DNA from: a virus
Lineage: Duplodnaviria > Caudoviricetes
DNA: 64,000 bases
Reading direction: 5' to 3' (one strand)
Virus record (IMG/VR): IMGVR_UViG_3300044852_000015
Coordinates: 128,001 to 192,000 of that record
Made by a program: the position numbers and the translations under genes. Below are positions 44,717-44,834 of the stretch, in pieces (positions within the stretch are counted from its first letter, which is position 1; the number at the start of each line of letters is the position of its first letter). A model generated the notes under the pieces. That model was not told where the DNA came from. It saw nothing but the letters and a program-made list of their open reading frames with translations, and did no database searches.

Positions 44717-44834
44717 ACCAGTGTTGTGGGATCGAACCACTGCTAGTTCCCGGACCGCACTAGCTTTCCAATGTGCAAGGTTGACGCGTTGTCAGCTATG
44801 GCCCTACACATTGACCTCCCCGAGGCTCACTGGT
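44717..44834 (-). ncRNA. tRNA-like RNA 2 with elongated anticodon and variable arms
   Basis: ACCAGTG/CACTGGT acceptor, GCCTC/GAGGT D-like arm, CAATGTG/CACATTG long arm, GCTAGT/ACTAGC, GTGG-TTCGATC-CCAC T arm. Confidence 0.7.

What the first reader, a model, noticed from the sequence alone, without database searches (positions are those of the whole stretch)
44717..44834. tRNA-like RNA 2: five-arm cloverleaf with enlarged anticodon and variable arms
Seen: a perfect 7-bp acceptor, a T arm with TTCGATC, a compact D-like hairpin, a long CAATGTGTAGG/CCTTGCACATTG arm with inner TGAC/GTCA hairpin and a 6-bp variable arm. It is packed 6-9 nt from its neighbours like a normal member of the tRNA operon. 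There is no recognisable anticodon loop.
Basis: seen in the sequence. Interest (0 to 1): 0.72.

Follow-up and report, generated by a model that had tools for sequence, protein, structure and literature searches.

The report
Anticodon-less tRNA-shaped RNA of jumbo phages
A giant uncultured phage keeps, among its tRNA genes, a conserved 118-base RNA with the outline of a tRNA but no codon-reading loop; it is a new family of the long-unexplained tRNA-like stable RNAs known from phages T4 and T5.

Summary
On the minus strand, 44834 to 44717, lies a 118-nt five-arm cloverleaf. It has a 7-bp acceptor, a 5-bp D hairpin with an NGG triloop, a 12-bp arm capped by a bulge and hairpin, a 6-bp extra arm with an 11-nt loop, and a 4-bp T arm (UUCGAUC).

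I found eight further distinct copies in related uncultured jumbo phages. In the six-sequence alignment, 13 of 38 pairs show compensatory changes (14 of 39 in a nine-sequence fold) and every helix holds. No reading frame is conserved.

It is not a decoding tRNA. There is no anticodon loop, and the stretch where an anticodon would lie co-varies as a stem. ARAGORN does not call it, and no Rfam family matches at E up to 10. It never encodes CCA, unlike most canonical tRNAs of the clade.

The loops are more conserved than the stems: 34 of 36 positions against 26 of 56. So the tRNA frame probably serves excision and stability, and the invariant loops are the working surface. Their partner is unknown.

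The closest known RNAs by architecture are T5 RNA2 and T4 rnaC. There is no sequence homology to them. This scan has noted similar tRNA-shell RNAs in other phages.

The parts
44828..44834 (-). Acceptor stem, 5' strand (ACCAGUG), RNA positions 1-7
   Evidence: Pairs with 44717-44723. Three of the 7 pairs show compensatory changes across relatives.
44814..44826 (-). Compact D-like hairpin, GCCUC-GGG-GAGGU (5 bp, 3-nt loop NGG)
   Evidence: 100% paired, with 2 pairs compensated. The two loop Gs are invariant.
44769..44813 (-). Long arm in the anticodon-arm position: 12-bp stem, near-invariant bulge CCAUAGC, 4-bp hairpin UGAC-AACGC-GUCA
   Evidence: Five of the 12 stem pairs are compensated. The apical 21 nt are invariant at 19 of 21 positions in nine genomes. 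There is no 7-nt anticodon loop.
44765..44768 (-). Invariant GAAA linker between the long arm and the extra arm
   Evidence: 4 of 4 positions invariant.
44742..44764 (-). Extra (variable-position) arm: 6-bp stem GCUAGU/ACUAGC with 11-nt loop GCGGUCCGGGA
   Evidence: The loop is invariant at 11 of 11 positions. The stem keeps pairing through A-U to G-C and G-C to A-U changes.
44726..44740 (-). T arm GUGG-UUCGAUC-CCAC (4-bp stem, T-loop motif UUCGA)
   Evidence: Two pairs are compensated. UUCGA is invariant. The loop is 7 nt in three genomes and 6 nt in six.
44717..44723 (-). Acceptor stem, 3' strand (CACUGGU), followed by discriminator C at 44716. No encoded CCA.
   Evidence: The trailers in the nine genomes are CGCUU, CACAU, UGCUU, AGCUU (five genomes) and UGCAG, never NCCA.
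44622..44707 (-). tRNA-Tyr(GUA), the conserved downstream neighbour, 9 nt away
   Evidence: ARAGORN and Rfam. It lies 7-9 nt downstream of the element in 8 of 9 genomes.

Best explanation
This is a gene for a small, stable, non-decoding RNA built on a tRNA frame. It is probably transcribed with the phage tRNA cluster. The acceptor and T-arm stack, with the GG of the D loop docking on the T loop, would make it a substrate for host RNase P at its 5' end. RNase P cleavage at the 5' end of tRNA-Tyr would free its 3' side, and exonucleases would trim the remainder. The tRNA frame thus acts as a natural tRNA scaffold that excises and protects the RNA. The working surface is the near-invariant set of single-stranded elements: the bulge and pentaloop at the tip of the long arm, the GAAA linker and the 11-nt loop of the extra arm. 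These most likely bind a protein or RNA partner in trans. Shown here: the fold, its conservation, the absence of an anticodon loop and of an encoded CCA, and the fixed position in the tRNA cluster. Inferred: processing, stability and partner binding.
For: The five-arm fold is supported by 13-14 compensated pairs in nine phage genomes. Loops are more conserved than stems: apical 19/21, linker 4/4 and extra-arm loop 11/11 invariant, against 26/56 for the acceptor, D, T and long stems. There is one copy in each of the six viral records searched whole. The element is present in every relative found, although their tRNA sets range from 4 to 13 genes over unequal lengths of fetched DNA. It sits 7-9 nt upstream of tRNA-Tyr in 8 of 9 genomes. 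The -1 base is U in 7 of 9, and UUCGA in the T loop and GG in the D loop are invariant. No frame is open in all relatives. Engineered tRNA scaffolds with an insert in place of the anticodon stem-loop are processed and stabilised in E. coli (PMC3753655). T4 and T5 carry stable tRNA-like RNAs in their tRNA clusters.
Against: There is no expression, end-mapping or stability data, because the phage is uncultured. The T stem has only 4 bp, and one or two unpaired bases separate it from the acceptor stem. The D loop has only 3 nt, so the tRNA elbow and RNase P recognition are not assured. No partner was identified. A 10-mer complementarity scan of the phage genome gave only chance-level hits. Invariant loops carry no covariation signal about tertiary contacts.
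Confidence: 0.7

Rival explanations
1. It is a purely cis-acting processing signal. On this view the tRNA-like fold only directs RNase P and 3' trimming of the polycistronic transcript, for example to help mature tRNA-Tyr, and the excised RNA has no function of its own.
For: It is tightly packed between two other tRNA-ended RNAs and almost always sits next to tRNA-Tyr. T4 tRNAs are known to mature from dimeric precursors (my own knowledge).
Against: Both neighbours have their own acceptor ends, so no extra punctuation is needed. The element persists in L003, where tRNA-Tyr is absent. The near-invariance of 34 of 36 loop positions far from the cleavage sites is not explained by a processing role.
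Confidence: 0.15
2. It is a working tRNA of unusual build. It might be an 8/4 allo-tRNA or tRNA-Sec-like species, or a tRNA with an insert that is removed. It would then be charged, for example by SerRS through the long extra arm, and take part in translation.
For: The frame has an 8-bp acceptor in 6 of 9 genomes, a 4-bp T stem, a long D stem with a tiny loop and a long extra arm. These features recall the 8/4 allo-tRNAs reported in bacteria and their phages (PMC5389517). SerRS does not read the anticodon (PMC5389517).
Against: There is no 7-nt anticodon loop anywhere. The bases at positions 32-38 co-vary with the opposite strand as a stem and differ between genomes. The continuous 12-bp helix contains no bulge-helix-bulge motif. 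There is no Rfam tRNA or tRNA-Sec match at E up to 10 and no ARAGORN call even with introns allowed. The discriminator varies (C, U, A) and is never G. CCA is never encoded, although most canonical tRNAs of the clade encode it.
Confidence: 0.06
3. It is a decaying tRNA pseudogene or a chance fold with no function.
For: tRNA finders reject it. The single-sequence fold is only moderately better than shuffles, z = -2.7.
Against: Compensatory changes occur in all five helices that vary (the invariant apical hairpin gives no information), and the loops are invariant across genomes that are only 74-91% identical over the element. It is retained as a single copy while real tRNA genes come and go.
Confidence: 0.03
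4. It is a Y RNA-like tRNA mimic (YrlA type) that tethers a Ro60/Rsr protein to a nuclease.
For: YrlA RNAs mimic tRNA, occur in phages and can be cut by RNase P (PMC4201824).
Against: The Rfam YrlA model does not match the element. No TROVE/Ro60 gene was found in the phage record, which is about 86% complete. The topology is opposite: here the ends lie in the acceptor stem and the anticodon-position arm is closed.
Confidence: 0.03

Closest known systems
Phage T5 RNA2 (125 nt, NC_005859 32959-33083) and RNA1 (144 nt), annotated 'tRNA-like stable RNA with unknown functions'
   Same: It lies inside a phage tRNA cluster on the tRNA strand. It is similar in size. The MFE fold of RNA2 shows the same order of arms: acceptor stem, D-like hairpin, enlarged central arm, small extra hairpin and T arm with GGUUCGAAUCC. 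It has no anticodon loop.
   Different: There is no sequence or covariance-model similarity; model R1 finds nothing at the RNA1 or RNA2 loci at E up to 1. T5 RNA2 has a normal 5-bp T stem and a larger D loop. Its extra arm is small, whereas here the extra arm is large and invariant.
Phage T4 species 1 RNA (rnaC, 139 nt) and species 2 RNA (rnaD, 119 nt)
   Same: They are small RNAs encoded in the tRNA region, annotated as small, stable RNAs, and their function is still unknown (PMC3014915, PMC9697503). The rnaC fold has a canonical T arm, a long extra arm and a long central arm.
   Different: There is no convincing similarity to model R1: the best score is 9 bits, on unrelated sequence, and rnaC scores 4.3 bits at E 3.6. 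The rnaC fold lacks a clear D arm and has a weaker acceptor stem. The rnaD fold shows no T arm.
8/4 allo-tRNAs and tRNA-Sec-like tRNAs (PMC5389517)
   Same: They share a longer acceptor with a 4-bp T stem, a long D stem with a very small loop and a long extra arm. They are reported in bacteria and their phages, and the authors raise a possible regulatory non-coding role.
   Different: Allo-tRNAs keep an anticodon arm and loop and are thought to decode. This RNA has none, has a variable discriminator, and carries an unpaired base between the T and acceptor stems.
Engineered tRNA scaffold for recombinant RNA (PMC3753655)
   Same: The design principle is the same: acceptor, T and D arms are kept, and the anticodon stem-loop is turned into a hairpin that carries another RNA. 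The cell then processes and protects the fusion.
   Different: The scaffold is man-made. Here the payload is small, and part of it sits in the extra arm as well.
YrlA / bacterial Y RNAs (Rfam RF02553)
   Same: They are non-coding tRNA mimics with T and D arms, found in bacteria and phages, and some are RNase P substrates.
   Different: The topology is permuted, they are Ro60-linked, and the model does not match this element.

Membership tests
tRNA (Rfam RF00005) | 7-bp acceptor stem formed by the 5' and 3' ends | tested here: met
   7 pairs, 95% of cells paired, 3 pairs compensated.
tRNA (Rfam RF00005) | T arm: 5-bp stem and 7-nt loop with the UUCRA motif | tested here: inconclusive
   UUCGA is invariant. 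The stem has only 4 bp, and the loop is 7 nt in three genomes and 6 nt in six.
tRNA (Rfam RF00005) | D arm with G18 G19 in a 7-11-nt loop | tested here: inconclusive
   The arm is a 5-bp stem with a 3-nt loop NGG. The GG is invariant. Elbow formation cannot be tested with these tools.
tRNA (Rfam RF00005) | 5-bp anticodon stem with a 7-nt loop carrying U33 and an anticodon | tested here: not met
   The arm is a 12-bp co-varying stem capped by a bulge and a 5-nt loop. No 7-nt loop has U33.
tRNA (Rfam RF00005) | Detected by tRNA models | tested here: not met
   ARAGORN makes no call, even with introns allowed and a relaxed threshold. Rfam gives no tRNA match at E up to 10 on the 141-nt stretch.
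tRNA (Rfam RF00005) | 3' CCA, encoded in most tRNAs of this phage clade | tested here: not met
   None of the nine copies encodes CCA. Six of the eight ARAGORN tRNAs in the window do. Post-transcriptional addition cannot be tested here.
tRNA-Sec / 8/4 allo-tRNA | 12-13-bp acceptor branch split 8/5, 9/4, 8/4 or 9/3 | tested here: inconclusive
   An eighth pair (U8-A) is possible in 6 of 9 genomes but is A.A or C.A in three, including the window. One base stays unpaired before the acceptor 3' strand.
tRNA-Sec / 8/4 allo-tRNA | Anticodon arm with an anticodon (UCA for Sec), and a match to Rfam tRNA-Sec | tested here: not met
   There is no anticodon loop, and no Rfam match of any family at E up to 10 apart from a chance miRNA hit.
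tmRNA | tRNA-like domain plus a tag reading frame and pseudoknots | tested here: not met
   ARAGORN in tmRNA mode finds none. At 118 nt, the RNA has stops in every sense frame in the window copy.
YrlA / Y RNA (RF02553) | Match to the model, a Ro60 (TROVE) gene nearby, and ends in the Ro-binding stem | tested here: not met
   The model does not match the element. No TROVE domain was found in the phage record. The topology differs.
Phage tRNA-like stable RNAs (T4 rnaC/rnaD, T5 RNA1/RNA2), a functional kind rather than a homology family | Encoded within the phage tRNA cluster on the same strand, with tRNA-like acceptor and T arms but no anticodon | tested here: met
Phage tRNA-like stable RNAs (T4 rnaC/rnaD, T5 RNA1/RNA2) | Accumulates as a discrete stable RNA during infection | not testable with these tools
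   The phage is uncultured and no transcript data were available.
Phage tRNA-like stable RNAs (T4 rnaC/rnaD, T5 RNA1/RNA2) | Sequence or structure homology to the T4 or T5 RNAs | tested here: not met
   Model R1 finds no convincing match in the T4 or T5 tRNA regions with filters off.

The most novel reading that the evidence does not exclude
The RNA is a trans-acting tRNA decoy in the phage-host conflict. Its tRNA frame, which resembles an 8/4 allo-tRNA or tRNA-Ser, would lure a host factor that recognises class II tRNAs by shape, such as a tRNA-targeting defence nuclease, a nucleotidyltransferase toxin or a processing enzyme. The invariant extra-arm loop and apical bulge would hold or inhibit that factor. 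It lies in the same island as a Tad2-like immune-signal sponge gene. A variant of this reading is that the CCGG-centred extra-arm loop drives self-association into a higher-order RNA particle.
Probability: 0.12. Interest if true: 0.8.

Novelty: new member of a known kind. Interest (0 to 1): 0.45.

Why it matters
Small tRNA-like RNAs in phage tRNA clusters have been known in T4 and T5 for decades, and no function has been found for them. This family shows the same design in phages that carry a PhuZ tubulin gene, a marker of nucleus-forming jumbo phages. It also gives an unusually clean conservation pattern: the frame drifts with compensation while three loop elements are frozen. That pattern points to exactly which bases to mutate or to use as bait. 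It is a concrete handle on what the class does, and a natural counterpart of the laboratory tRNA scaffold. The limit is that the phage is uncultured, so tests would have to be heterologous.

Tried and rejected
- **Intron-containing tRNA.** ARAGORN with introns allowed makes no call for the element. It gives only a spurious 388-nt 'tRNA-Glu' that borrows the element's 3' half. The 12-bp helix has no bulge-helix-bulge motif.
- **Rfam.** The gathering and E-value scans over the window, the 4.5-kb island and the 141-nt stretch gave nothing.
- **Coding on either strand.** A 52-aa antisense ORF exists in the window, but in the relatives the frames are broken.
- **Paralogues.** There are none in this genome or in five related records.
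- **Wider relatives.**
  - blastn against 50,697 phage records found nothing.
  - Three degenerate patterns in IMG/VR returned only the same clade. An exact 24-nt pattern returned nothing.
  - The metagenome scan added three copies, a repeat of one contig, and one probable chance hit, L019.
  - All 50 bacterial genome hits to the extra-arm loop pattern match only the seeded 19 nt and are chance.
  - The nearest cultured phages by PhuZ, Xanthomonas phages RTH11 and LucasX, lack it. One 12-bit candidate had no T arm and no tRNA context.
- **Antisense targets.** Only chance-level 10-mers were found in the phage genome.
- **Other checks.** No Ro60 gene and no CCA-adding enzyme gene were found in the phage record. 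There is no convincing homology to the T4 or T5 RNAs.
- **Resemblances I noticed and did not pursue.** The extra-arm loop resembles SRP RNA domain IV, and GCUGACAA resembles P22 boxB. Both are short, and neither fits the supported fold.

Full report
**What is there.** The tRNA genes of this window lie on the minus strand. Read on that strand, bases 44834 to 44717 give a 118-nt RNA. In order, its parts are:
- acceptor 5' strand ACCAGUG, then A;
- D-like hairpin GCCUC-GGG-GAGGU;
- long-arm 5' strand CAAUGUGUAGGG, bulge CCAUAGC, hairpin UGAC-AACGC-GUCA, A, and long-arm 3' strand CCUUGCACAUUG;
- linker GAAA;
- extra arm GCUAGU, loop GCGGUCCGGGA, ACUAGC, then A;
- T arm GUGG-UUCGAUC-CCAC, then AA;
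- acceptor 3' strand CACUGGU.

The minimum-free-energy fold is exactly this cloverleaf: -45.6 kcal/mol, z = -2.7 against shuffles. A neighbouring tRNA-shaped RNA is noted as ending at 44841, 6 nt upstream. tRNA-Tyr starts 9 nt downstream.

**Where it comes from.** The window is part of a 238-kb viral record with 51.6% G+C. The record encodes a PhuZ-type tubulin. That protein is about 40% identical to those of the nearest cultured phages, Xanthomonas phages RTH11 and LucasX. It is therefore an uncultured jumbo phage of the group that carries PhuZ. That it builds a phage nucleus is my inference from PhuZ.

**Is it real?** A Tad2-like gene inside the tRNA island led to three related viral contigs. 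DNA patterns from the element added two more viral contigs and three metagenome contigs. This gives nine distinct sequences, 74-91% identical to the window copy.
- In the six-sequence alignment, the proposed structure has 97.4% of cells paired, and 13 of 38 pairs have changes on both sides.
- None of 500 column shuffles reached the observed values for four of five measures (3 of 500 for pair types). Sliding the partners by 1-3 columns drops pairing to 25-50%.
- All five helices that vary carry compensated pairs: acceptor 3, D 2, long stem 5, extra arm 1, T 2. The apical hairpin is invariant and so gives no covariation signal.
- RNAalifold on nine sequences, with no structure supplied, returns the same five arms with 14 compensated pairs.
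- No reading frame is open in all copies.

The element is a structured RNA gene under selection.

**It is not a decoding tRNA.**
- ARAGORN does not call it, with or without introns and at a relaxed threshold.
- Rfam gives no match to tRNA, tRNA-Sec, tmRNA, YrlA or anything else at E up to 10, even when only 141 nt are searched.
- The bases that would be positions 32-38 of a tRNA form the middle of a 12-bp helix. They change between genomes together with their partners (UGUAGGG in the window, AACGAGG in most relatives). No conserved anticodon exists.
- The only small loop on that arm has 5 nt (AACGC or AUCGC).
- Most canonical tRNAs of the clade encode their CCA end. In the window this holds for six of eight; the exceptions are the two lowest-scoring calls, Val(CAC) and Arg(UCG). 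None of the nine copies of the element does.
- The discriminator varies between C, U and A.

**The conservation pattern.** The parts that pair drift and are compensated. Of 56 columns in the acceptor, D, T and long stems, 26 are invariant. The parts that do not pair are almost frozen: apical bulge and hairpin 19/21, GAAA 4/4, extra-arm loop 11/11.
- The GG of the D loop and UUCGA of the T loop are invariant. This is what a tRNA elbow would need (inference).
- The T loop has 7 nt in three genomes and 6 nt in six. The T stem has 4 bp.
- In six of nine genomes, base 8 can pair with the A before the acceptor 3' strand. This gives an 8/4 arrangement with one unpaired base.

**Genomic behaviour.** There is one copy in each of the six viral records searched whole. 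The element lies 7-9 nt upstream of tRNA-Tyr in eight of nine genomes. It persists in the one genome that has lost tRNA-Tyr. The surrounding tRNA sets range from 4 to 13 genes, over unequal lengths of fetched DNA. The upstream tRNA-shaped RNA is syntenic in the three viral contigs aligned across the island, L001-L003.

**Most likely mechanism.** The frame would make the RNA a substrate of the host tRNA-processing machinery. RNase P would cut at its 5' end, where the -1 base is U in 7 of 9 copies. RNase P cutting at the next tRNA, followed by exonucleolytic trimming, would form its 3' end. The compact tRNA-like fold would protect it from decay. This is the logic of the engineered tRNA scaffold, in which the anticodon stem-loop is replaced by a hairpin carrying a foreign RNA (PMC3753655). 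The invariant loops are then the functional surface, bound by an unknown protein or RNA. I put 0.7 on this general reading. The processing steps and the existence of a partner are inferred, not shown.

I found no phage gene for Ro60 or for a CCA-adding enzyme. I also found no antisense target in the phage genome above chance.

**Rivals.**
- A purely cis-acting processing signal (0.15) does not explain the frozen loops. Both neighbours also carry their own tRNA-like ends.
- A working but odd tRNA (0.06) is contradicted by the absence of an anticodon loop, the variable discriminator and the missing CCA. Charging by an anticodon-blind synthetase such as SerRS cannot be excluded by sequence alone.
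- A pseudogene or chance fold (0.03) is contradicted by the covariation.
- A Y RNA (0.03) fails the model, the Ro60 linkage and the topology tests.

**Comparison with what is known.** The T5 genome record annotates RNA1 and RNA2 as 'tRNA-like stable RNA with unknown functions' inside its tRNA region. The fold of RNA2 (125 nt) shows the same order of arms, with an enlarged central arm and a canonical T arm. T4 rnaC and rnaD (139 and 119 nt) follow the tRNA genes, and their roles are still unknown (PMC3014915, PMC9697503). The rnaC fold shows a T arm, a long extra arm and a long central arm. The covariance model built here finds no convincing match in either region. The relation is therefore one of kind, not of homology.

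The frame itself recalls the 8/4 allo-tRNAs described in bacteria and their phages: a long D stem with a tiny loop, a long extra arm and a 4-bp T stem (PMC5389517). It lacks their anticodon arm.

Earlier notes of this scan report other anticodon-less tRNA-shell RNAs in other phages and in this same island. I used them as leads only. I re-checked the T4, T5, YrlA and PhuZ points myself.

**Verdict.** This is a real, conserved RNA gene and a new sequence family of a known but unexplained kind. Interest is moderate: the finding sharpens an old open question by showing which bases matter, but it does not answer it.

Noticed in passing
L019:107-131 (metagenome contig WNFY01148364.1): A 25-nt stretch is identical to the apical bulge and hairpin of the L003 copy (GCCAUAGCUGACAUCGCGUCAGCCG). 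It lies in a G+C-rich contig just upstream of a GGAGG and an ATG, with no other part of the element present. About one chance hit to the 20-base pattern was expected by my rough estimate, so it is probably chance, although the match runs 5 bases beyond the pattern.
   Followed up: partly
window 42101-42171 and 43292-43369 (minus strand): The ARAGORN calls tRNA-Val(CAC) and tRNA-Arg(UCG) do not encode CCA, unlike the other six tRNAs. The Arg call scores 25 bits, below the Rfam tRNA gathering score of 29, and has an irregular anticodon stem. Both may be further aberrant tRNA-like genes.
   Followed up: no
window 41021-41147 (minus strand): ARAGORN with introns allowed reports a 'tRNA-Phe(GAA)' with a 34-nt insert at position 33. 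This is another tRNA-shaped RNA of the island, and earlier notes cover it.
   Followed up: no
window 43899-44537 (minus strand): This is an interval of about 640 nt between tRNA-Asp and tRNA-Gln; only a 67-aa and a 69-aa ORF of 50 aa or more overlap its ends. Parts of it (44097-44359) are 90% identical in the relatives L001 and L003, which suggests a further conserved non-coding RNA.
   Followed up: no
L001, L002, L003, L007, L009, L018, L021 (tRNA islands of relatives): The tRNA repertoire differs widely between these closely related phages: 4 to 13 ARAGORN calls, over unequal lengths of fetched DNA. Trp, Ile, His, Gly, Leu and Ala genes are present in some only. The tRNA-shaped non-coding RNAs stay in place.
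   Followed up: partly
window 42451-43269 (minus strand): A 272-aa protein with a Tad2-like (Thoeris anti-defence 2) domain at residues 66-146 sits inside the tRNA island. A staphylococcal-nuclease homologue lies at 40313-40795 at its edge.
   Followed up: partly
window 44742-44764 (minus strand): The invariant 11-nt loop of the extra arm holds the palindrome CCGG (UCCGGG if G.U pairs are counted). This could allow loop-loop self-pairing. A 4-nt palindrome in a loop of this size is not unlikely by chance.
   Followed up: no
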